A stretch of 64,000 bases of DNA from Acidobacteriota bacterium (GTDB lineage Bacteria > Acidobacteriota > UBA6911 > RPQK01 > JADFOI01), in assembly GCA_963663035.1 (NCBI GenBank), contig OY760074.1, positions 2,688,001-2,752,000 of the forward strand, written 5' to 3'. The notes beneath the pieces were generated by a model. It saw only the letters and a list, made by a program, of their open reading frames with translations, made no database searches and had not been told where the DNA came from. Of the stretch, positions 48,826 through 64,000 are shown in pieces. Position 1 is the stretch's first letter; each line of letters begins with the position of its first letter. A program made the position numbers and the translations under genes.

Positions 48826-50988
48826 GTGAATGGGTCCGGTACGGCGTCCGGGCCGGGCAGATTTTCCTGGCAATTCCCCCCACCGCGATTCTCTTTTTCG
48901 GGGGGGGTTTGGTTCGCCGTTTGGAGCTTTGTACGGCGTCCTTTTCCGGCGCTTGAGACGGTCCCATTGCTCGATCTTTTGGAGTATCACAACCCGAATT
49001 TTTACAGTGCCGTTGTGGTTTGGTACTACCTTTCGCCGCTGGTGGCGGTGATGCTGGCCGGGTCTATTGCCCTGTCCGTTTGGAAGGTTTGGATTGAGGC
49101 GCGAAAGCGCGATTTAATTCCCTTCGGGGCGCTTCCCGCTTGGCCGCTTTCGCCGGAGCAGCCCGGCCCGGAAATCGTCATCGGGGAAGTGCATCATCCG
49201 GTCGAACCCAAGGAGATTTTCAACCCCGAATGGCTCACCATCCCGGAGCGCGGACTGTACACCGGCATTGCCATTTTCGGAGCGGTGGGGAGCGGTAAAA
49301 CTTCGGCTTGCATGCACCCCTTCGCCAAGCAGCTACTCGGCTGGCAAGCGGACGATCCAGAGAAGCGGGCGGCGGCGCTCATGCTCGAAGTGAAGGGGGA
49401 TTTTTGCCATGACATTCGCTCGATCCTGGACGGCGCGGGCCGGGGAGACGACTACCTGGAGATCGGAATGGGGGGCCTCTGGAAATGGAATCCCCTCTCC
49501 GCGTGGTGGCTCGATTCGTACTCGCTGGCCTACACCGTTGCCAGCCTTGCTGAATCAACTTTTCGGCAAGGGCAAGGAGCCCTTTTGGCAGCAAGCCTAT
49601 ACCAATCTGGTGCGCTGGATTATCGAGCTTCACCGGGTGCTACCGGAGCAGTGGGTGACATTGCAGCAGGTCTATCAATGCGCGATTGACCCGGATCTAT
49701 TCGCGGCCAAAATCAAACAGGCCGAGGCGTGGAGCGCAGAGCTAAACACCGGGGAGGTTTTCATTCCGGTCGAGACGTGGACGAAGCGGGCGGTGGAGGT
49801 TGGAGAGTGGCTATGGACGGGCGGCGGGGAAAACGGGAAGGAAATGCGGGCCGAATGGAGCCCGGAATTGGAGCATAAGCTAAAGGAATTGAGGGATCAA
49901 GCCTCGTATCGTTTGGGAGCCCGGAGCCGGTGACGATGTGAGAGAGCGGGTGGCCGCTGTGAAGCGGTGGTTTGACAACGACTGGCAAAAGCTGGACAAC
50001 AAAATCAAATCCTCGATTGTCGAAGGGGTTTCCGTATTCCTGTCGATGTTCGATATGCCGGACGTGGCGGCGGTGTTCTGTCCCCCGCCCCCGGAAGTGT
50101 CCGACGATCCCCGGCGCATTGGCCCGAAGGCCAGGGCCGCGATGCTGGCCAGAGGCAAAGGCCCAGGCCAAGGGCCAAGGGGAGGACAGCGCCGAGAAGA
50201 AGGCCCAGGAGTCCCGGCAATGGCCCGGCGATACCATTGCCGGAAGGCCGCGCCATTTACCCCCGCTCTATGAATTGATCGAGGGCGGCAAGGTGCTGGC
50301 CTTGAATATGCCAGCCGGGAGCAACCCGGCGCTGGCCCGCGCCATCGGCGTGATGCTCAAAAACGCATGGCTCCAAGCCTTGCTCATGCGGCCCGCGCAG
50401 ATGAAGGAATCCCCAAGCACTTACTTCCGGCCCGCTGTCTTTATTTGCGACGAGTACCAATCCTTCGCGTCGGTGGGCGAGGACGATCCCACCGGCGATG
50501 AGAAATCCTTTGCCTTAACGCGGCAATGCCGGTGCATCCCGATTGTTGCGACCCAATCCATATCCTCATTGCGGGCCGTGCTGGGCAGTTCGGAGGCGTG
50601 GCGGGCGCTGCTACAGACACTTCGCACCCGGATCTTTCTATCCTTGAGCGACGACGCCAGCGCCAAGATCGCATCGGAATTGTGCGGGCAGGTTGCCAAG
50701 ATCAAAGGATCGTACACGATCAGCGAGACCTCGAAGCGGGCGGGCGTGTCCCCGCTATCGGGCCGGGCCGGTGGAGGCGGCGGGAGCATCGGCGCAACCA
50801 AGTCTTTCCAGGAGCGCCGGGAGGCCGTCTTTCACCCGCGAGACTTCACCTTGCTTGGAAACTGTCAAGCCATTTGCTTGCCCTATGACGGAGCGCAATC
50901 GCTGGAACCCCGGAGGGTCTATCTCAAACCTCATTACCTTCCCCTGGATCATTCTTATTGGAGAGCGAAGGAGGCCGGACAGATATGA
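48826..50988 (+). pseudogene. virD4: Type IV coupling protein (VirD4/TraD-like), split by several frameshifts
   Basis: GAVGSGKT, LEVKGDF, EPFWQQAY, FICDEYQSF, IVATQSISSL, ASELCG across ORFs 48826, 49409, 49938, 49972. Confidence 0.85.
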
Positions 50989-51934
50989 GCAACGCGGCCA
51001 GCGGGCTTGCACACCTGAAACCTTTTTTGCCAGGGCTTGAACCCCTGCTAGAAGACGCGGAAGTGTCCGAGATCATGATTAACGGCCCCGGCAATGTTTG
51101 GATCGAGGCGAGGGGCCGGTTAACGGCTCATGCAGCGCCAGGGTTGGACGAATCGGCCTTGTTACGGGCGGCTATTCACATCGCCCGTCCTTTGGGCCTG
51201 GACCCGGCCACCACGCCCATCATCGACGCCCGGCTCGATGATGGTTCCCGCGTGGCGATCTGTGTTCCCCCGGCCAGTCCCCACGTTGCGATCACCATCC
51301 GGCGATTCGGCAAGCGGACGTTTAGCGCGGCGGATCTAGTCGAGCAGAAAGCCCTACCGGAAAACGTCTTGAAAGCGGCAGAGCAGGTGTTGATGACGCG
51401 GCGCAACATTCTGGTTTCCGGTGGGACCGGATCAGGCAAGACCACCTTGCTCAATGCCCTCATAGAACTGCTACCCGTTGACGAGCGCATTGTGGCAATC
51501 GAGGACACGCTAGAGCTTCGCATTGACCACTCGAATTGTGTCCGGTTTGAGGCCGAGGGTTGCAGGAAGGCGCGGTGACGATCCGCGATCTAGTGCGCCA
51601 TGCCTTGAGGCATCGACCGGATCATATCGTGGTGGGAGAGGTTCGAGGCGGTGAGGCGGCGGACCTGCTGCAAGCCCTCAACACTGGACACGGCGGGTCA
51701 CTCACGACCGTACACGCCAACAACGCGGAGAGCGCCCTATCGAGAATCGCCAGTTGCGCCATGCAGGGCGGCGGGGAGTTGCCGTGGGAGGTCACTTGCC
51801 GAGGCGTGGTGGATGGGATTGCGATGGTCATTCACATGACGCGCCGCGAGGGGCGGCGTTTCGTGGAAGAAGCCGCATACGTCAAAGGTTACGAAGCGAA
51901 GGAGAACCAATGGGAAATCGAACGGCTGGAATGA
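50985..51934 (+). pseudogene. virB11: VirB11/TrbB/CpaF-type ATPase, frameshifted near 51560
   Basis: SEIMING, DARLDDGSRV, SGGTGSGKTT, IEDTLEL; then LRHRPDHIVVGEVRG...NTGHGGSLTTVHAN in the next frame. Confidence 0.88.
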
Positions 51935-58475: not shown

Positions 58476-58674
58476 AACGTTCCACACCATCGATTGTGAA
58501 AAACCCGAAGATCTTGCTAAACGACTCCAATACCGTATCGAAGCGACTGTTGGGAAAGGCCGCGAGACTGGTTTGGCAATAAGACCCCATGTAAGAACCG
58601 AGGGAAATCGACTACAACAAGACCGATGACGAAGAAATTATCAGCGGAGAAGTTACACGGGAATCAGGTCAGAC

Positions 58675-58713
58675 GGCACTGTCAGAGGAAATCCACAGGT
58701 CTGAGTTTTCCAC
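58675..58713 (-). mobile_element. Solo IS6 right-end fragment
   Basis: GGCACTGTCAGAGGAAATCCACAGGTCTGAGTT is the reverse complement of the IS6 right end at ~28039-28071 with few changes. Confidence 0.75.
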
Positions 58714-58714
58714 C

Positions 58715-58870
58715 GACGACATCCTGGAAACCGGACAAACATTGACATGCATTCGCGACCTAGTACAGGCACGGGGCGCGGCTTCGGTCCGCGTGGCAAC
58801 CCTACTGCAGAAAATGGGCAAACTGGAACTCCAGTTTGCTGCCGATTATGTTGGATTTCAGATTCCCGAC
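58715..58870 (+). pseudogene. hpt: Hypoxanthine phosphoribosyltransferase fragment
   Basis: DDILETGQTL...GAASVRVATLLQK...ADYVGFQIPD. Confidence 0.75.
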
Positions 58871-58904
58871 ATCAGAATCCTCAATGACTAGTATTACTGT
58901 GTTG

Positions 58905-59732
58905 GGTTCTGGTGCAGATAGGATTGTCGGAGCGATAAGACCAGGAGTGCGCCCCGGCGATGCGGCCTATGCTGCCATGACGTGACGCCAGATCACCGCG
59001 GGATTCGATTGCCATGGGATCGGAATTGCGAACTGGCGTTTGTGAATCTTCTGCGCCAGCTCGATGCCGATAATGACACGTCGCGCATTGTAGAACGTCT
59101 TGAATCCCAACATCGGGCGCAATCGCCCTTTCACCCGGCGGTGGTCCTGCTCTACAACGTTGTTCAGGTATTGACAGCAACGAATCTTCACCGGGTTCCG
59201 CCCCCGGAAGTTGAACTCCCCGTTCATTCCCATGTGCCGCAGGGCGCTATGGCTCGGCCGGTGGCCATCCAGAGTGATGCTGTGTGGCTCCCGATGATGC
59301 TTCAGCGCCTTGCGAAAGAAGGCCTTCGCCGCCGCGATGCCACGTGCCCGACTGAGAAAGAACTCCACAGTGTTGCCCTGTCCGTCCACGGCTCGATACA
59401 GGTACATCCACTGGCCCCGCACCTTGATAAACGTTTCATCAACCCGCCAGCTCCCACCCACCGGCCGTTCGAATCGGCTCCAACGCCTTTCGCAGATTTC
59501 GGCATAGCGAACGACCCACCGCAAGATTGTGGTGTGCGAAATCGGTAAACCCCGCTCACCTAAAATCTCGACCAGGTCCCGGTAACTCAGTTTGAAGCGG
59601 AAATACCAGCGAAGGCAGAGAAGAATGATGTCGTCTTCGAACCAACGTCCGGCAAATAGAGGATTCCGTTCCGTTTTACGATGCACCATGTCCCATTATC
59701 GCCAATTCCCGTTGGCTGTCTGCACCAGAACC
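58905..59732 (-). mobile_element. IS6-family element (transposase 58967..59689)
   Basis: IRs GGTTCTGGTGCAGA / TCTGCACCAGAACC; WRVDETFIKV, YLYRAVD, LNNVVEQDHR. Confidence 0.92.
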
Positions 59733-60228
59733 CTTTGTAGACCAACTGGACATGAGCGTTGAAGAGACGCCGCATCTGGTTGCGGAGCTTGGTGTGTACG
59801 TTGCCGCCGCCGCTACTGTAGATGCCGAGTTCCCGCATGAACTTCGCCAGTGACGGCCCTAGGATCAGCACACGGCTTTGGGTCTGTACCGCTTCGGTCG
59901 AGACCCAGGCCAAGATCAGGCGGGGGAAATTACCGAAGGGGAGCTTGTTGTTGACCCCGGCGATCATGGCGAGCGTGTAGGGACCGTTGACCCGCTTGTA
60001 CTGGAGCCGGTTGCCGGGGTTGCTGCGGGGCAACGAACACAGTGCCATCATTCGCGCCATGAAGCCTCGATCGGCGTCCGCTTCGCTGGCCCTGACAAGC
60101 TGGTTTACCTGATCGGCAACGGTGAAGCCTCGCCGCGCCTGGGGGGAGGCGTCGCGGAGTGCCGGCACGTCATCCAGGCCGGAGACGACCTCGCCGATCG
60201 GAACCAACTCGCCGCGTTTACGCTGCAT
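59733..60228 (-). pseudogene. repA: Plasmid RepA (RepA_C-like) 5' part, truncated by IS6
   Basis: ALCSLPRSNPG...RVNGPYTL...LPFGNFPRLILAWVSTEAV...LGPSLAKFMRELG. Confidence 0.8.
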
Positions 60229-60323
60229 GGGTTTATTCTCCCATGCGCCTCAGACACAACAGGGACACCTCTCCCAAAGGGATTGGTAGCAGGAATGATC
60301 TCGCAATAGCTTCGCAAGAGTGG

Positions 60324-60563
60324 CTACTTAATTACTGTCCCTTCTTGGGCGGTTGCGGCGGTCCTGGGTGGAGAACCTGGCGGTCGCGGCGGTCCTGGTG
60401 GAGAACCTGGCGGTCGCGGTGGTCCTGGTGGAGAACCTGGCGGTCGCGGTGGTCCTGGTGGAGAACCTGGCGGTCGCGGCGGTCCTGGTGGAGAACCTGG
60501 CGGTCGCGGCGGTCCAAGCTTGCCGCTAGCCTTTATGTTTTTTTCATCCGACATATCGGTCAC
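60324..60563 (-). CDS. Proline-rich repeat micro-protein (PPRPPGSPPG)x5
   Basis: ORF 47 bp downstream of the TIR gene, same strand; weak RBS. Confidence 0.45.
   Translation of the reverse strand: MTDMSDEKNIKASGKLGPPRPPGSPPGPPRPPGSPPGPPRPPGSPPGPPRPPGSPPGPPRPPGSPPRTAATAQEGTVIK
60361..60515. repeat. 30-bp tandem repeat, 5 copies plus a partial copy
   Basis: GGTCCTGGTGGAGAACCTGGCGGTCGCGG(C/T); no unique spacers. Confidence 0.97.
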
Positions 60564-60610
60564 CCGTTGACTCGGTTAGTAGTTGCTTCGCATTATCGTT
60601 CAGTTACGGT

Positions 60611-61108
60611 TCAATTATCCTTCCGTATCTTGATCGCTTCCTCAACGGCGGCTTCGAGATTCTTCTTAATCCAGTCGTATCGCTCTTTGCTGTTGCTTCC
60701 CGCTGGGTTGTAACACTTCACAATCGACGAGAGTTTTTTACCGCTGTTGCCGTGGGTGATGCTGGTGAACGGGTTGCTCCCTTTAGTCGCGATCTTGCCG
60801 CCCAGGTCTTTCAGGCCGTGCACATGGATGCCGACCACACCCATCCCATCGTCCCAGGACTCGACGATTTCGTGTTTAATCCATTTCCGACCAGCTGTGT
60901 TGCTGCCGACCAGAACCACCGTGCAGGACCGCCCGTGCATCTGGTCGGCAATCCACTTCTTGATAGCTGCGTCGCCACCTTTCGTGACGGTTTCCCAATC
61001 GTTGTCTGACACGGGGGTGTTTCCCTCGATCATCCCCATGTTCCTTACCTGCGCTGCGCGCGAGGCATCGGGCTTATAGTGAAAACTGAAAAACGCTTTA
61101 CGGGCCAT
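60611..61108 (-). CDS. TIR-domain protein (DUF1863/MTH538, Thoeris ThsB-like)
   Basis: RKAFFSFHY, DNDWE, IKKWIADQM..RSCTVVLVG..TAGRKWIKHEI..SW...GVVGI; catalytic-type Glu present. Confidence 0.9.
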   Translation of the reverse strand: MARKAFFSFHYKPDASRAAQVRNMGMIEGNTPVSDNDWETVTKGGDAAIKKWIADQMHGRSCTVVLVGSNTAGRKWIKHEIVESWDDGMGVVGIHVHGLKDLGGKIATKGSNPFTSITHGNSGKKLSSIVKCYNPAGSNSKERYDWIKKNLEAAVEEAIKIRKDN

Positions 61109-61110
61109 TG

Positions 61111-61572
61111 TCAAACCTCCCCTACATCATCAGCAGCACCACAAAAGCAGCACCACAAAACAACAAACACAATTGTGACTGTGACGGTGATAGTACCGTG
61201 AAACAGGCGTAGCGTGTGCGACCAGGCAACGCTCCACTTCCCGTCTACACTTTCTTCAAACGGTTGAGTGTTCATCGAGAAATCGACCTGCTCCGCCTTC
61301 GCACCTCTGACGTGGTCGTAGAGCTTCCGAAACAGACGCTCTTGGCGCAAGAAATACGCATCAAGCGCCCAGAACATGAAGACCGGAAAGTAGGTCAGGA
61401 CCACAAAGAGCAAGTTGGTGCTGGCGGCGGCGAGCGCGAACAAGGCCGCAACCAACGTCACGTTCCAGCGCTTGATGAGGAACGAGTTGCTCGCCATTCT
61501 TGTGATGACCGCTTGGATCATCTGCAGGTGCGCGATCTTGGCTTCCATGCCGTTCCTTTCGTCATCTGTCAT
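61111..61572 (-). CDS. Multi-pass membrane protein coupled to the TIR gene (putative effector)
   Basis: HLQMIQAVITRMASNSFLIK.W, FWALDAYFLRQERLFRKLYD; three hydrophobic segments; stop 2 bp before the TIR start. Confidence 0.75.
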   Translation of the reverse strand: MTDDERNGMEAKIAHLQMIQAVITRMASNSFLIKRWNVTLVAALFALAAASTNLLFVVLTYFPVFMFWALDAYFLRQERLFRKLYDHVRGAKAEQVDFSMNTQPFEESVDGKWSVAWSHTLRLFHGTITVTVTIVFVVLWCCFCGAADDVGEV

Positions 61573-61673
61573 GTTGCCCTGTTTTGATAAGACCCGCGCC
61601 CGCGCTTCAGCGCTCCGCTTATTTAAGGGGCCTTTCTCTGAGCCTTCCCGCAAGAGCCGAGGCCAGAAGGGAA

Positions 61674-61735
61674 GCGGCAAGTTACCGTAGGGGAGTTTGT
61701 TAATCTGCGCCCGCCACCATGACTAGCTTGTACGG
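61674..61735 (-). pseudogene. repA: Short repA remnant 2
   Basis: PYKLVMVAG.. / NKLPYGNLP vs PYTLAMIAGVNNKLPFGNFP in remnant 1. Confidence 0.6.
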
Positions 61736-61800
61736 ACTATGCATGGGCCTTTCCGTCGGAACGCCACCGACAGCCCCGCGACCGCTTCGTCAGCACATCC

Positions 61801-62118
61801 TCAGCCGTTGCAAACCGGCTTCCACTTCTCGATCAGGTCGTCTTCCTCCGCACGACGCAGCCGCTCATCACTAGGAGTAGTGTGTGTATGGATGTGGGTT
61901 GCACTGTTTCGCGTGGCGCACGCCTCCTTTTCGTGATCGGCCAGACGCTCTGAGAGGCTGGAGGTCTGTCCAATGTACACAGGACGCCAGCTCCGTGGTG
62001 TTGTTTCCGCAGCATAGATGTAGTTACCGGGTTCATCCTTGAAATCCGCTCCAATCGGACAAATCCAATAGTCGTACGTCTTACCCGAACCGCCTTTCCA
62101 TTTGATGCTTTTAGCCAT
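61801..62118 (-). CDS. Small GIY-YIG-like nuclease
   Basis: PGNYIY...PVYIGQTSSLSERLADH...EEDDLI...PVCN; GAGGGGAG RBS. Confidence 0.72.
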   Translation of the reverse strand: MAKSIKWKGGSGKTYDYWICPIGADFKDEPGNYIYAAETTPRSWRPVYIGQTSSLSERLADHEKEACATRNSATHIHTHTTPSDERLRRAEEDDLIEKWKPVCNG

Positions 62119-62133
62119 TGATCTCCCCTCTGA

Positions 62134-63513
62134 GAGCTACCCTCAAAAGGTGTGTAAATAGCACAGGCGGTGATTATCCTTCCGGGTGAAAATAAAAACC
62201 CGGGCGGAAGAGCCCGAAAGGAAGGAGTCACACCGCCATGAGCAAGAAGAACATTGATCACAGTGTGGAGTCAAGAGTCTGCTTTGAACAGCTGGAAGAG
62301 TGGGTGCGAGAGCAGATCCAGTTTTACGTACAGGAACTGCTGGAGGATGAAGTGACACAGCTGCTGGGACGAAGAAAGAATGAGCGTCGCCGAGAAGTGG
62401 ACGCCTCCGGTGGCTATCGCAACGGCTACGGCAAGGAGCGGCGACTGACGATGAGTTGCGGAACGATCAAGCTGCGGCGTCCCCGAGTGCGGGATCTGGA
62501 AGAGCGTTTTGAGAGCCGGGTCTTGCCGCTGTTTGCCAAGCGAACGCGAGAGGTACGAGACTTGATTCCAGAACTCTATTTACATGGTCTGGCCGAGGGG
62601 GATTTCGATCTGGCCTTGAGAGGGCTTTTAGGGGAAGAAGCGCCGCTGTCCCCCAGCACCGTAGCCCGGTTGAAACAGAAGTGGCAGGGAGAAATGGAGG
62701 CCTGGCAGAGCCGTCGGCTGGATGATCTGGAAGTCGTGTATTTGTGGGCGGACGGCGTGTACATCAAAGCAGGGCTGGAGAAGGAGAAGGCCGTGATTCT
62801 GGTAGTGATCGCCGCTTTAAGTGATGGCACTAAAGTGGTGGTGTCCGTCAGTAGTGGTTATCGAGAATCGACCCAGAGCTGGTCCGCAGTGCTGCGGGAT
62901 CTCAAAGAGCGGGGGATGAACCCACCCCGTCTGGTGATCGCTGACGGGCATCTGGGGATCTGGGGAGCGTTGCGCAACGTGTTCCCAGAAGCCGACGAGC
63001 AGAGATGCTGGAATCATCGCATCGTCAACTTGCTGGCCAAGATCCCCAAGAGTCGGCACAAAGCGGCCTTGTTGATGTTGCGGCAGATCCCTTATGCAGA
63101 AACACGGCAGGAAGCCGAGCGAGTCAAAGGACGATTCCAACATTGGTGTAGCAAGAGAGGCCTGGAGGCAGCGGCTGATCTGATCGACCAGGACTGGGAG
63201 CGGATGGTGACGTTTTACAACTATCCCAAACAGCAGTGGCAACATCTGCGGACTACCAACCCAGTGGAGTCTCCCTTCTCTGCTCTGCGACTGCGAACCG
63301 ATGCTGCTCGAAGGTTCAAGAAAGTGGCCAACGCACGGGCTGTCATCTGGAAGATGCTGCTGGTCGCTGAGAAGAGATTTCGCCGTTTGAAGGCTCCCCA
63401 CTTGATGAAGGATGTCTACCAAGGAGCCCAATATGTCAATGGAGTTCCAGTCAACCCAGTCACCCAGGAGAAAGCCGCCTGATGTCTATTTACACACTTA
63501 TTGACGGAACCTC
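62134..63513 (+). mobile_element. IS256-family element (transposase 62238..63482)
   Basis: 28-bp IRs GAGCTACCCTCAAAAGGTGTGTAAATAG / CTATTTACACACTTATTGACGGAACCTC; RNGY, LWADG, QRCWNH, RTTNPVES. Confidence 0.93.
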
Positions 63514-63593
63514 TACTAGACCGTCTAAATATCTAGCTTAACTAGCCATCCCATAAGTTTAGGCGAAGCGTTGGGAGCATAGAGCCATCTTCC

Positions 63594-63710
63594 CTGATCG
63601 GCTTGGGTGAAGTGCCGACGCGCCTGGGGCGAGGTGTCTCGGATTGTTTGCACCGGTCCGGGCAGTTTACCGAGGGCTTCCCCGATGGAAATCAAGTCGT
63701 CCCTTGCCAC
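63594..63710 (-). pseudogene. repA: repA 5' remnant 3
   Basis: LISIGEAL...RDTSPQARRHFTQADQ vs LVPIGEVV...RDASPQARRGFTVADQ in remnant 1. Confidence 0.7.
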
Positions 63711-63716
63711 CTAACG

Positions 63717-64000
63717 TCAAGGATTTTGGTACGTAAACCCAGCCTTCGTGATTTCCTCGCCGAAGGTTTCAAGCCATTCAATCAACAAGCCGTACACATT
63801 AACAGCAGCCTCGGCTACCTCTTTTGATTGATTGTTGGTGTAGGTATATCCGTGTTGCCACAACTGATGAACAATCCGGTTCCGCCTCTGATTGAGTTGT
63901 TGTAATTCGCCGACAAAAACTGCCTTGGGATAACCCTGATCTATCAGATACAGTCCGTATGCAGCAACAAGTTGGTTGAAAATCCCGCGTGGTTTATTGA
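63717..64000 (-). CDS. 3' end of a HEPN-motif protein (5' end outside window)
   Basis: Manual translation ...ELQQLNQRRNRIVHQLWQHG...TYQNP*; R-x4-H motif RNRIVH in a helical context. Confidence 0.55.
   Translation of the reverse strand, partial: NKPRGIFNQLVAAYGLYLIDQGYPKAVFVGELQQLNQRRNRIVHQLWQHGYTYTNNQSKEVAEAAVNVYGLLIEWLETFGEEITKAGFTYQNP

What the first reader, a model, noticed from the sequence alone, without database searches (positions are those of the whole stretch)
60324..61572. Non-canonical TIR signalling module: membrane protein + ThsB-like TIR + proline-repeat micro-protein
Seen: a three-TM protein whose stop lies 2 bp before a DUF1863 TIR gene with an intact WIxxEI motif, followed on the same strand by a short ORF of (PPRPPGSPPG)x5. 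Established: Thoeris ThsB TIRs make NAD-derived signals read by ThsA effectors (SIR2-SLOG or TM-Macro). Neither effector is recognisable here, and the membrane protein has no room for a Macro domain. Inference: the small membrane protein may itself be a signal-gated pore effector, and the repeat peptide an accessory component. TIR + TM pairs may already be catalogued in recent screens; the third gene is the unusual part.
Basis: partly seen in the sequence, partly recalled or inferred. Interest (0 to 1): 0.72.

Follow-up and report, generated by a model that had tools for sequence, protein, structure and literature searches.

The report
TIR defence pair with membrane effector
A mobile two-gene module, a TIR signalling enzyme beside a very small three-helix membrane protein that probably acts as its cell-killing effector against phages, sits here among transposons, and the proline-repeat reading frame behind it does not appear to belong to it.

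Summary
All three described features are in the sequence. The minus strand carries a small three-TM protein gene (61111-61548), then after 2 nt a 165-aa ThsB-type TIR gene (60611-61108). After a further 56 nt comes an ORF that runs through 5.6 copies of a 30-bp tandem repeat (60324-60563).

The first two genes match both halves of PADLOC's candidate system PDC-M50 (1e-49 and 4e-64), so the pair is already catalogued. The membrane protein belongs to a large family with no Pfam model (5070 clusters at 50% identity). Its members lie next to TIR proteins of many architectures:
- 48 of 72 full-length genome loci
- 30 of 38 viral contigs
- enterobacterial plasmids

Close relatives of this ThsB (67-80% identical) pair either with this membrane protein (45 of 80 loci) or with the canonical SIR2-SLOG ThsA (20 of 80). 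The two kinds are interleaved on the ThsB tree, and in one pair the ThsB DNA is 95% identical. This supports the membrane protein as a swapped-in Thoeris effector, probably gated by the same signal.

The proline-repeat ORF has no relative in 5.8 billion proteins and no counterpart in 197 related loci. Shared cassettes end within about 100 nt of the TIR stop.

Verdict: a new member of a known kind, of moderate interest. The "third gene" is not supported.

The parts
61111..61548 (-). Gene of the small three-TM protein, the putative Thoeris-type effector. It encodes 145 aa from M45. Alternative upstream starts lie at 61572 (ATG) and 61680 (TTG). The stop is TGA at 61111-61113.
   Evidence: PADLOC PDC-M50A at 1.2e-49. 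No Pfam or NCBIfam hit. phrog_19896 at 1.4e-35. 1079 homologues, mostly 134 aa. 5070 clusters at 50% identity. Three hydrophobic segments and positive-inside topology. AF2 pLDDT 95.
61132..61160 (.). 14-nt tandem duplication (2.1 copies) inside the 3' end of the membrane-protein gene. It shifts the frame and adds 11 residues.
   Evidence: TRF. An allele with 14 nt left out at 61154 appears in contigs of runs X15 and X17. Without the copy the protein ends at 134 aa.
60611..61108 (-). ThsB-type TIR gene (165 aa), the putative phage sensor and signal synthase.
   Evidence: Pfam ThsB_TIR at 4.3e-26. PADLOC ThsB at 7.7e-69 and PDC-M50B at 4.2e-64. PDB 8wcf at 8e-38, and ThsB structures 6lhy and 9b7d at 1.4e-20. 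E80 invariant in 32 of 32. It is the only ThsB_TIR match in the genome.
60324..60563 (-). Proline-repeat ORF (79 aa from GTG, 76 aa from the ATG at 60554). It is adjacent to the cassette but is not supported as part of it, and its coding status is uncertain.
   Evidence: ORF and translation. No family. No homologue. Not among called genes. Unique in its own genome. No Rfam match.
60348..60515 (.). 30-bp tandem repeat, 5.6 copies, 97% identical. It underlies the proline-repeat ORF.
   Evidence: TRF score 306. The only variant between copies (G/A) is synonymous in the Pro frame alone (read). Short-read contigs break at it.
59587..60228 (-). Context: RepA_C-like plasmid replication gene, cut at its 3' end by an IS6-family element (transposase 58967-59689).
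   Evidence: Pfam RepA_C at 1.7e-7 and DDE_Tnp_IS240 at 5e-40. Homology to RepA copies in relatives ends near 60256-60279.
62238..63482 (+). Context: IS256-family (Mutator) transposase on the other side of the cassette.
   Evidence: Pfam Transposase_mut at 8.4e-60.

Best explanation
This is a two-gene Thoeris-type anti-phage cassette carried as cargo in a mosaic of conjugative-element and insertion-sequence remnants.

Proposed mechanism, all steps inferred:
1. The ThsB-type TIR protein senses infection and converts NAD+ into a small ADP-ribose-derived signal. This step is inferred from the family.
2. The signal is most likely the one used by type I Thoeris, 3'cADPR. This is inferred from the kinship of this ThsB to ThsBs that sit beside SIR2-SLOG ThsA.
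3. The signal is read by the 134-145-aa three-TM protein encoded just upstream. That protein takes the place of ThsA.
4. Its conserved, positively charged cytoplasmic face would bind the signal. This face is formed by the N-terminal amphipathic helix and the helix after TM2.
5. The protein would then assemble into a membrane-breaching form that stops the infected cell.

The proline-repeat ORF downstream is a lineage-specific neighbour and not a component.
For: Membership. Both genes match PADLOC PDC-M50 (A at 1.2e-49, B at 4.2e-64), and the TIR also matches ThsB (7.7e-69). The catalytic-type Glu in WIKHEI is invariant in 32 of 32 relatives, and the protein aligns to solved ThsB structures.

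Linkage of the membrane family to TIR genes:
- Genome loci: of 79 from many phyla, 7 are partial. Of the other 72, 48 have a TIR gene within 1.8 kb. The architectures include ThsB_TIR, TIR_2/SEFIR, TIR-DUF4062, TIR-NB-ARC-TPR, LRR-Roc-COR-TIR and WD40-Ras-TIR.
- Viral contigs: 30 of 38, of which 5 fall under Pfam's cut-off.
- Annotated records: adjacent TIR genes in a Klebsiella IncF plasmid, a Priestia plasmid and a Vibrio phage record.

Effector swap. Among the 80 nearest metagenomic relatives of this ThsB, 45 loci hold the membrane protein, 20 hold SIR2-STALD ThsA, 10 hold SLOG cluster 3 with a TIR_2 protein, and 5 are unknown. On the ThsB tree, well-supported branches force at least 6 changes of the TM label and at least 7 of the ThsA label. 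L141 (TM-ThsB) and L123 (ThsA-ThsB) share 95% DNA identity over ThsB only.

Link to a known signal-sensor domain. One SLOG-TM fusion exists (P0189). TIR+SLOG+TM triads occur in L068 and L070.

No other effector. The own genome has no SIR2_2 and no STALD. Its single Macro domain is a standalone frame 416 kb away.

Topology. Mean K+R is 3.9 in the N-terminal segment, 0.3 in loop 1 and 7.0 in loop 2. Conservation is concentrated on those two cytoplasmic segments.

Precedent. Type V (DUF2270, three TM, 3'cADPR) and type VII (SLATT) Thoeris use small membrane effectors (bioRxiv 10.64898/2025.12.03.692087, sections 5 and 6 and passages).

Cassette limits. Pairs of related cassettes in different contexts share DNA only from 0-37 nt before the TM gene to 7-104 nt after the TIR gene. 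This holds for 4 of the 10 pairs at 85% identity or more.
Against: - No experiment bears on this family in anything I could read. Defence, signal and pore formation are all inferred.
- 21 of 72 full-length genome loci carry the membrane gene with no TIR within 1.8 kb, some in conserved housekeeping synteny. The family is therefore not strictly TIR-bound.
- The protein has no recognisable ligand-binding domain. Foldseek against the PDB gives no match at E <= 0.001, and VIA-align gives only generic helical hits with Z <= 9.6.
- It is not detectably related to the two known small membrane effectors. hhalign against DUF2270 gives 1.5% and 3.5%, and against one SLATT_1 protein 0.1%. No SLATT hit appears in hmmscan of 27 members at E <= 10.
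- The window's copy carries a frame-shifting 14-nt duplication at its 3' end, whose effect on function is unknown.
- The same paper reports Thoeris systems whose TIR makes 3'cADPR while the effector does not respond to it (type IX and one type V). Kinship of TIRs therefore does not fix the effector's ligand.
Confidence: 0.72

Rival explanations
1. The TIR protein is itself the effector, an NAD+-depleting enzyme. The small membrane protein would be a tether, sensor or regulator of it, and no diffusible signal is involved.
For: - Some bacterial TIRs act as NAD+-depleting effectors and do not signal (paper 10.64898/2025.12.03.692087, section 5).
- The membrane protein has no known ligand-binding domain.
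- The two genes are tightly coupled, 2 nt apart here and 9-60 nt apart in most loci.
Against: - The same ThsB clade alternates between this protein and SIR2-SLOG ThsA, which is a signal-read effector.
- The membrane family pairs with TIRs of unrelated architectures, and with SLOG proteins, including one fusion. This fits a shared small ligand better than many specific protein contacts.
Confidence: 0.12
2. One reading: a three-component system in which the (PPRPPGSPPG)n micro-protein is translated and acts as an accessory part of the TIR module.
For: - The ORF is on the same strand, 56 nt after the TIR stop, with no terminator-like site between them.
- The repeat period is a multiple of 3, and the only variant between copies is synonymous in this frame alone.
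- Contigs from an RNA library bridge the TIR 3' end and the ORF start (60529-60634). DNA carry-over is not excluded.
- One other ThsB locus (L123) has a PKPPRPP-repeat sORF with an AGGAGG site 311 nt downstream.
Against: - There is no homologue and the ORF is not called as a gene.
- 0 of 79 genome loci and 0 of 38 viral loci hold a comparable ORF, and only 1 of 80 metagenome loci does.
- In that one locus, the DNA shared with its 96-99% identical sister loci ends 48 nt after ThsB, so the sORF is flanking DNA.
- Related cassettes end 7-104 nt after the TIR gene.
- In 899 kb of related loci, 4 ORFs of 35 aa or more reach 30% Pro. One such ORF falling within 700 nt of a TIR gene is therefore not unexpected.
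Confidence: 0.04
3. The 30-bp array is not coding at all. It would be a recently expanded minisatellite, or a set of iteron-like binding sites belonging to the plasmid-type RepA gene that starts 95 nt beyond it.
For: - The array consists of 5.6 nearly identical direct repeats (97%) lying between the cassette and the RepA_C gene.
- ORFs run through the array in at least four of the six frames.
- It is not called as a gene and has no relative.
- The region is a patchwork of plasmid and conjugative-element remnants.
Against: - Four RepA copies in related genomes (L085, L086, L087, L089) have no tandem repeat in the 1.5 kb upstream. Their homology to the window ends about 30-50 nt before the RepA start, short of the array.
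- The period of 30 and the synonymous-only variation fit a coding frame. Both are weak arguments, since the variation is of a single kind.
Confidence: 0.4

Closest known systems
PADLOC candidate system PDC-M50 (genes A and B)
   Same: Both proteins match its profiles over nearly their full length (A at 1.2e-49, positions 1-131 of 134; B at 4.2e-64, positions 1-160 of 162). The genes are adjacent on one strand.
   Different: Nothing structural differs. PDC-M50 is only a label in the database. I found no paper text holding 'PDC-M50', so nothing about function comes with membership.
Type I Thoeris (ThsB + SIR2-SLOG ThsA, signal 3'cADPR)
   Same: The TIR is a ThsB: PADLOC ThsB at 7.7e-69, and PDB ThsB structures 6lhy and 9b7d at 1.4e-20. 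20 of its 80 nearest relatives sit beside SIR2-STALD ThsA.
   Different: There is no ThsA here or anywhere in the genome. The partner is a 145-aa membrane protein with neither a SIR2 nor a SLOG domain.
Type V Thoeris (ThsB + ThsF, DUF2270/PF10028; Yirmiya et al., bioRxiv 10.64898/2025.12.03.692087)
   Same: Both are two-gene operons with a small effector of three membrane helices. The TIRs come from a clade shared with type I. The paper proposes a positively charged pocket. hhalign places our W28-TM1-TM2-Arg-rich helix on the equivalent DUF2270 segment.
   Different: There is no DUF2270 match in the own genome. Two of 27 members hit it, only at E 0.44. hhalign probabilities are 1.5% and 3.5%, so no relationship is demonstrated. 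DUF2270 has 184 positions against 134 here.
Type VII Thoeris (ThsB + SLATT effector ThsH) and the TIR-SLATT pairs of Firmicute phages (Iyer et al., PMC9503650)
   Same: A small TM effector sits beside a TIR and is predicted to change membrane permeability in response to an ADPR derivative. Like SLATT, this family also associates with SLOG, through one fusion and through triads.
   Different: No SLATT model is hit by 27 members at E <= 10. SLATT_1 is not found in the own genome. hhalign against one SLATT_1 protein gives 0.1%. Other SLATT families were not compared profile to profile.
Type II Thoeris (ThsB + TM-Macro effector, signal His-ADPR)
   Same: A TIR paired with a membrane-embedded effector.
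   Different: The effector has no Macro domain. The single Macro protein of the genome is a standalone frame 416 kb away.

Membership tests
PADLOC PDC-M50 | A protein matching the PDC-M50A profile | tested here: met
   PDLC04686 at 1.2e-49, residues 45-174 of the 189-aa ORF against profile positions 1-131 of 134.
PADLOC PDC-M50 | A protein matching the PDC-M50B (TIR) profile, encoded next to A | tested here: met
   PDLC04688 at 4.2e-64, profile positions 1-160 of 162. The genes are 2 nt apart on the same strand.
Thoeris (any type) | ThsB-type TIR protein with the conserved catalytic-type glutamate | tested here: met
   PF08937 at 4.3e-26. E80 in WIKHEI is invariant in 32 of 32 relatives and aligns with WVRYEI of the ThsB structures 6lhy and 9b7d. 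That this Glu is the catalytic residue is recalled and comes from no call.
Thoeris (any type) | An adjacent effector gene that responds to the TIR product | not testable with these tools
   Adjacency and effector swapping are shown. The response to a signal needs experiment.
Thoeris (any type) | Protection against phage that depends on both genes | not testable with these tools
   No experiment on this family was found.
Type I Thoeris | SIR2-SLOG (STALD) ThsA | tested here: not met
   No PF13289 and no PF18185 match in the own genome, which is 96.6% complete in one contig. The STALD control rang in none of the 14 control genomes, but the same model scored ThsA proteins at up to 3e-80.
Type II Thoeris | Effector with TM helices plus a Macro domain | tested here: not met
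   The partner has no Macro domain. The only Macro domain lies 416 kb away in a 181-aa frame.
Type V Thoeris (ThsF) | Effector belongs to DUF2270 (PF10028) | tested here: not met
   No match in the own genome. hmmscan gives 2 of 27 members at E 0.44. hhalign gives 1.5% and 3.5%.
Type VII Thoeris / SLATT | Effector carries a SLATT domain | tested here: inconclusive
   No SLATT hit in 27 members at E <= 10. SLATT_1 is absent from the own genome. hhalign against one SLATT_1 protein gives 0.1%. SLATT_2 to SLATT_6 were not tested by profile-profile comparison, and no solved SLATT structure appeared in the fold searches.

The most novel reading that the evidence does not exclude
The 134-aa three-TM protein would be a self-contained receptor and pore. 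It would bind a cyclic ADP-ribose isomer directly, in a pocket built from its N-terminal amphipathic helix and the helix after TM2, with no SLOG, Macro, DUF2270 or SLATT domain.

Its family has no Pfam model and holds 5070 clusters at 50% identity. It would then be one of the most widespread Thoeris effectors and a new ligand-gated membrane fold. In some lineages it would instead be driven through a separate or fused SLOG protein.
Probability: 0.4. Interest if true: 0.6.

Novelty: new member of a known kind. Interest (0 to 1): 0.35.

Why it matters
TIR signalling with interchangeable effectors is a central theme of bacterial immunity and has parallels in plants and animals. The window's cassette adds no new principle, because TM effectors beside ThsB are known and this pair is catalogued.

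The survey made for it does show three things about this membrane family:
- It has no Pfam or NCBIfam model, is called only 'hypothetical protein' in the annotated records looked at here, and is very large.
- It is mobile, occurring in conjugative plasmids of enterobacteria, in phage and satellite-like records, and in many phyla.
- It replaces ThsA next to ThsB genes that are 95% identical at the DNA level.

This makes it a well-defined, small and tractable target for asking how a minimal membrane protein reads a nucleotide signal. For annotation, the result is that the proline-repeat ORF should not be counted as a system component.

Tried and rejected
Self-association. Complex prediction with four copies of the membrane protein (alignment A3) returned 'no answer' (score 0.30, mark 0.42). 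It says nothing either way. The job was accepted only after the queue had turned it away many times.

Fold searches.
- Foldseek against the PDB gave no match at E <= 0.001.
- VIA-align against 48,161 chains gave a best Z of 9.6, on generic long-helix proteins. This is below the level that means anything for helical models.
- ESM Atlas returned only unnamed clusters.

Relation to known small effectors. Kinship with DUF2270 and SLATT was sought and not found. SLATT_1 was too rare in the phylum sample (2 of 151 genomes) to build an alignment. Other SLATT families were not tried.

Iteron idea for the repeat. RepA copies in relatives have no upstream repeats.

L123 proline sORF. It looked like a second case but lies outside its cassette.

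Fused forms. The 'longer' search found 3 proteins, none informative.

Published validation.
- I tried to learn whether an enterobacterial member of this pair is one of the validated E. coli systems TIR-I to TIR-IX of PMC11350192. I read section 6, passages, supplement 3 and part 1 of supplement 4.
- The domain drawings exist only as figures, and the accession numbers did not match those of the plasmid records.
- Strain RS218, which is listed for TIR-I, is not among the 33 of 5426 E. coli genomes that hold the module.
- The question stays open.

Thoeris type catalogue. The text of bioRxiv 10.64898/2025.12.03.692087 does not say what the type IX effector ThsJ is. This family may therefore be among them.

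Other.
- No paper holds '8WCF'.
- Rfam has no match at 58500-64000.
- The search of earlier findings was not open.
- Parts of the stretch without RNA-library contigs in run X17 are not evidence of silence.
Full report
**What is there**

On the minus strand of window 60324-61680 lie three consecutive open frames.

*The membrane protein gene.*
- The ORF at 61111-61680 most likely starts at M45 (61548). The family consensus begins there ('ME.KIAHLQ'), and so does the called gene in the public collection (P0001, 145 aa).
- It has three hydrophobic segments, at residues 28-43, 46-63 and 115-139.
- The AlphaFold2 model is all-helical, with mean pLDDT 95 and pTM 0.83.

*The TIR gene.*
- The membrane gene's stop (TGA, 61113-61111) lies 2 nt before the ATG (61108) of a 165-aa protein. 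A GGGGAGG ribosome-binding-like site lies 7 nt upstream of that ATG.
- The protein matches Pfam ThsB_TIR (PF08937) at 4.3e-26.
- It aligns to the solved ThsB structures 6lhy and 9b7d at 1.4e-20, and to 8wcf at 8e-38.
- Its Glu80 in W-I-K-H-E-I is invariant in 32 of 32 relatives.

*The repeat ORF.*
- Fifty-six nt after the TIR stop, an ATG (60554) opens a frame that runs through 5.6 copies of a 30-bp tandem repeat. The repeat has 97% matches and spans 60348-60515. The frame reads (PPRPPGSPPG)x5.

**Setting**

The three frames sit in a patchwork of mobile DNA.
- On one side is a RepA_C-like replication gene, cut by an IS6-family element. On the other are a weak GIY-YIG-like ORF and an IS256-family transposase.
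- Further out lie an IS3-type integrase, duplicated TraG/TraD-like and VirB11-like genes, ParA, a 945-aa Eco57I-like methyltransferase and an IS4-type transposase.
- The DNA of the locus is found in none of 6 genomes of the same genus. Only the membrane gene matches, at 74-75% identity, in 2 of the other 34 relatives searched.

It is accessory, horizontally acquired cargo.

**What the first two genes are**

- Both match the two profiles of PADLOC's candidate system PDC-M50 over their full length (1.2e-49 and 4.2e-64). The TIR also matches PADLOC's ThsB profile (7.7e-69).
- The membrane protein has no Pfam or NCBIfam family.
- It matches phrog_19896, of unknown function, at 1.4e-35.
- The family is large. 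There are 1079 hits at 90% clustering, mostly 134 aa long. A profile search finds 5070 clusters at 50% identity with E <= 0.001.

**Is the membrane protein tied to TIR?**

I fetched 79 genome loci holding a relative, from Acidobacteriota, Gemmatimonadota, Bacillota, Cyanobacteria, Actinomycetota, Pseudomonadota and other phyla.

- Seven loci are partial matches or sit at contig ends.
- Of the other 72, 48 have a TIR-domain gene within 1.8 kb, usually the very next gene. The architectures are very varied:
  - single-domain ThsB_TIR
  - TIR_2/SEFIR with extensions
  - TIR-DUF4062
  - TIR-NB-ARC-TPR
  - LRR-Roc-COR-TIR
  - WD40-Ras-TIR

- Three more have only a SLOG or a nucleoside-deoxyribosyltransferase-like neighbour.
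- Twenty-one have no TIR nearby. Some of these lie in conserved housekeeping synteny, for example behind a homocysteine methyltransferase gene in four Acidobacteriota.

Other collections give the same picture.
- In 38 viral contigs, 30 have a TIR neighbour (5 of them under Pfam's cut-off) and one has a prokaryotic-STING protein.
- In PLSDB, 122 plasmids hold a relative, including 40 from Klebsiella and 36 from Escherichia.
- In the three annotated records I opened, the neighbour is annotated as a TIR protein and the membrane protein as 'hypothetical'. These were a K. pneumoniae IncF plasmid, a Priestia megaterium plasmid and a Vibrio phage record.

**Effector swapping**

Starting from the TIR, I fetched the 80 nearest metagenomic relatives (67-80% identical).

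- 45 loci hold the membrane protein. In 36 of the 71 loci with enough upstream sequence it lies upstream on the same strand. In 6 loci it lies downstream.
- 20 hold a canonical SIR2-STALD ThsA.
- 10 hold a SLOG-cluster-3 protein plus a second TIR_2 protein.
- 5 are too short to tell.

On a maximum-likelihood tree of these ThsBs the two main kinds are interleaved. Well-supported branches alone force at least 6 changes of the 'TM' label and at least 7 of the 'ThsA' label.

The sharpest case is L141 against L123. L141 is a TM-ThsB locus and L123 a ThsA-ThsB locus. Their ThsB genes are 95% identical at the DNA level, and the homology stops at the edges of ThsB.

This is the pattern that Yirmiya et al. 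used to define new Thoeris types (bioRxiv 10.64898/2025.12.03.692087, section 5). It is the main reason to read the membrane protein as a ThsA substitute.

Type I Thoeris signals with 3'cADPR (same paper, introduction). The same signal is therefore the best guess here. The guess is not safe, because the paper also describes type IX and one type V system whose TIR makes 3'cADPR while the effector does not respond to it.

**No other effector in the genome**

The genome is a single contig of 3.59 Mb, 96.6% complete.
- It has one ThsB_TIR match.
- It has no SIR2_2 and no STALD match.
- It has one Macro domain, in a standalone 181-aa frame 416 kb away.

**How the effector might work**

- By the positive-inside rule, the N-terminal amphipathic helix and the TM2-TM3 loop are cytoplasmic. 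Mean K+R is 3.9 and 7.0 in these segments, against 0.3 in the TM1-TM2 loop, over 54 sequences.
- An N-terminal SLOG fusion (P0189) agrees with a cytoplasmic N-terminus.
- Conservation is concentrated on those two cytoplasmic segments. Q12, R17, D63 and E70 are invariant. H7, K26, W28, W60 and R74 are nearly invariant. TM3 is merely hydrophobic.
- This fits a ligand pocket on the cytoplasmic face, like the basic inter-protomer pockets that the paper models for ThsF and ThsH.
- Binding and oligomerisation are inferred, not shown.

**Comparison with known effectors**

- It is not a DUF2270 (type V ThsF) member. There is no match in the own genome. Two of 27 members hit it, only at E 0.44. hhalign gives 1.5% and 3.5%. 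Both of those weak alignments do place W28-TM1-TM2 and the Arg-rich helix on the topologically equivalent DUF2270 segment.
- No SLATT model is hit. One SLATT_1 protein gives 0.1% by hhalign. The other SLATT families were not compared.
- The family shares with SLATT its association with SLOG and TIR.
- It has no Macro domain, so it is not type II.

Whether the family already carries a type number I could not determine. It could be type IX's ThsJ, or one of the 18 untested effector types of Yirmiya et al. Those exist only in figures and closed supplements.

A full-text search finds no paper holding 'PDC-M50'. 'ThsJ' or 'type IX Thoeris' in this sense occurs only in that preprint.

**The proline-repeat ORF**

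Against its being a component:
- It has no hit in Pfam, PADLOC, NCBIfam or PHROGs.
- Only 2 candidate proteins among 5.8 billion shared words with it, and none scored.
- Neither start variant is a called gene in the collection.
- The DNA is unique in its own genome.
- tblastn finds it in none of the 79, 80 and 38 related loci.
- In 899 kb of genome and metagenome loci only 4 ORFs of 35 aa or more reach 30% proline. The viral loci have none.

The one look-alike is in L123. It is a 55-aa PKPPRPP-repeat sORF with an AGGAGG site, 311 nt after a ThsB. In that locus, however, the DNA shared with its 96-99% identical sister loci L129 and L135 ends 48 nt after ThsB. The sORF is therefore flanking DNA.

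Related TM-ThsB cassettes in different surroundings show the same limit. Among 61 such cassettes, 10 pairs reach 85% identity or more. In 4 of these pairs (L021/L025, L019/L025, L125/L141, L147/L180) the shared DNA runs only from 0-37 nt before the TM gene to 7-104 nt after the TIR gene, with kilobases of flank available on at least the downstream side (upstream only 300 nt for L019/L025 and 1 nt for L147/L180). In 3 further pairs the best alignment ends inside the cassette, and 3 extend further or reach the limit of the available flank.

For its being at least a real ORF:
- The period is a multiple of three.
- The single G/A variant between copies is synonymous only in the proline frame.
- No terminator-like site separates it from the TIR gene.
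- Contigs from an RNA library bridge the TIR end and the ORF start, although DNA carry-over is not excluded.

ORFs run through the array in at least four of the six frames, so the open frame itself proves nothing.

An iteron role for the neighbouring RepA gene is not supported. Four RepA copies in related genomes have no repeats upstream.

I conclude that the ORF is a lineage-specific feature of uncertain coding status and is not part of the defence module.

**Verdict**

The membrane-effector idea is well supported by comparative evidence and had been anticipated by PADLOC. The three-gene idea is not supported.
- The cassette is a new member of a known kind: Thoeris-type TIR signalling with a small membrane effector.
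- It is of moderate interest, mainly because the effector family has no Pfam or NCBIfam model, no published description that I could find, and is very widespread.

Noticed in passing
window 61132-61160: A 14-nt tandem duplication at the 3' end of the membrane-protein gene shifts the frame. The protein is 145 aa here instead of the family's usual 134 aa, and the stop moves to 2 nt before the TIR start. Contigs of runs X15 and X17 carry the allele without the extra copy.
   Followed up: yes
L123:3806-3973 (metagenome locus): A 55-aa PKPPRPP-repeat sORF with an AGGAGG site lies 311 nt after a ThsB that is 76% identical to the window's. It is followed by an HNH endonuclease gene. It lies outside the ThsA-ThsB cassette that L123 shares with L129 and L135.
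   Followed up: yes
L141 and L123 (metagenome loci): The ThsB genes are 95% identical at the DNA level, but one locus has the three-TM protein upstream and the other has SIR2-STALD ThsA. This looks like a recent effector exchange with breakpoints at the gene edges.
   Followed up: partly
P0189; L068:1793-4402; L070:1805-4387; L066:1825-4387: The membrane family also occurs fused to an N-terminal SLOG domain (378 aa), and in three-gene arrays of TIR_2, SLOG and TM. This suggests that some members are driven through a separate sensor domain.
   Followed up: partly
L005, L007, L015, L022 and 17 further genome loci: Twenty-one of 72 full-length loci carry the membrane gene with no TIR within 1.8 kb. 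In four Acidobacteriota it sits in the same place, behind a homocysteine S-methyltransferase gene. In L065 and L069 it sits beside selB and selA. Orphan copies may have another role, or may answer to a distant TIR.
   Followed up: no
L229:2501-3939 (viral contig): A family member lies directly before a 347-aa protein with a prokaryotic STING domain. This may be a link to cyclic-dinucleotide signalling instead of TIR signalling.
   Followed up: no
L009, L019, L020, L021, L025, L067 (genome loci): In these loci a short 124-aa ThsB-like gene sits directly after the TM gene. In L019, L020, L021 and L025 a further ThsB-like match (165 aa; only partial in L020) follows it, giving two TIR genes per cassette; in L009 tblastn found no second copy, and L067 was not checked for one.
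   Followed up: partly
window 60100-60270: The 5' end and upstream leader of the RepA_C-like gene have contig depths in the thousands in all four metagenome runs laid, against about 10-200 for the cassette. The first ~40 nt upstream recur several times in related genomes (5 places in G029). A second RepA N-terminal fragment lies at 63525-63710. This is an abundant, widespread mobile replicon.
   Followed up: partly
window 49972-51578 and L206:6209-9447: TraG/TraD-like and VirB11-like genes occur twice within about 25 kb. The copy inside the window is shorter (338 and 206 aa against 763 and 325 aa). These look like decayed duplicates of a conjugative element.
   Followed up: no
window 60515-60530: GCTAGC and AAGCTT (NheI and HindIII sites) lie 4 nt apart at the start of the very regular repeat. 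The flanks recur in contigs of two independent studies, so this is taken as coincidence and not as a sign of a construct.
   Followed up: partly
plasmid records, e.g. L200 and L207: A related TM-TIR pair (287-aa TIR) is carried on 63 enterobacterial plasmids, mostly conjugative IncF. It is present in 33 of 5426 complete E. coli genomes, with 7 places on chromosomes.
   Followed up: partly
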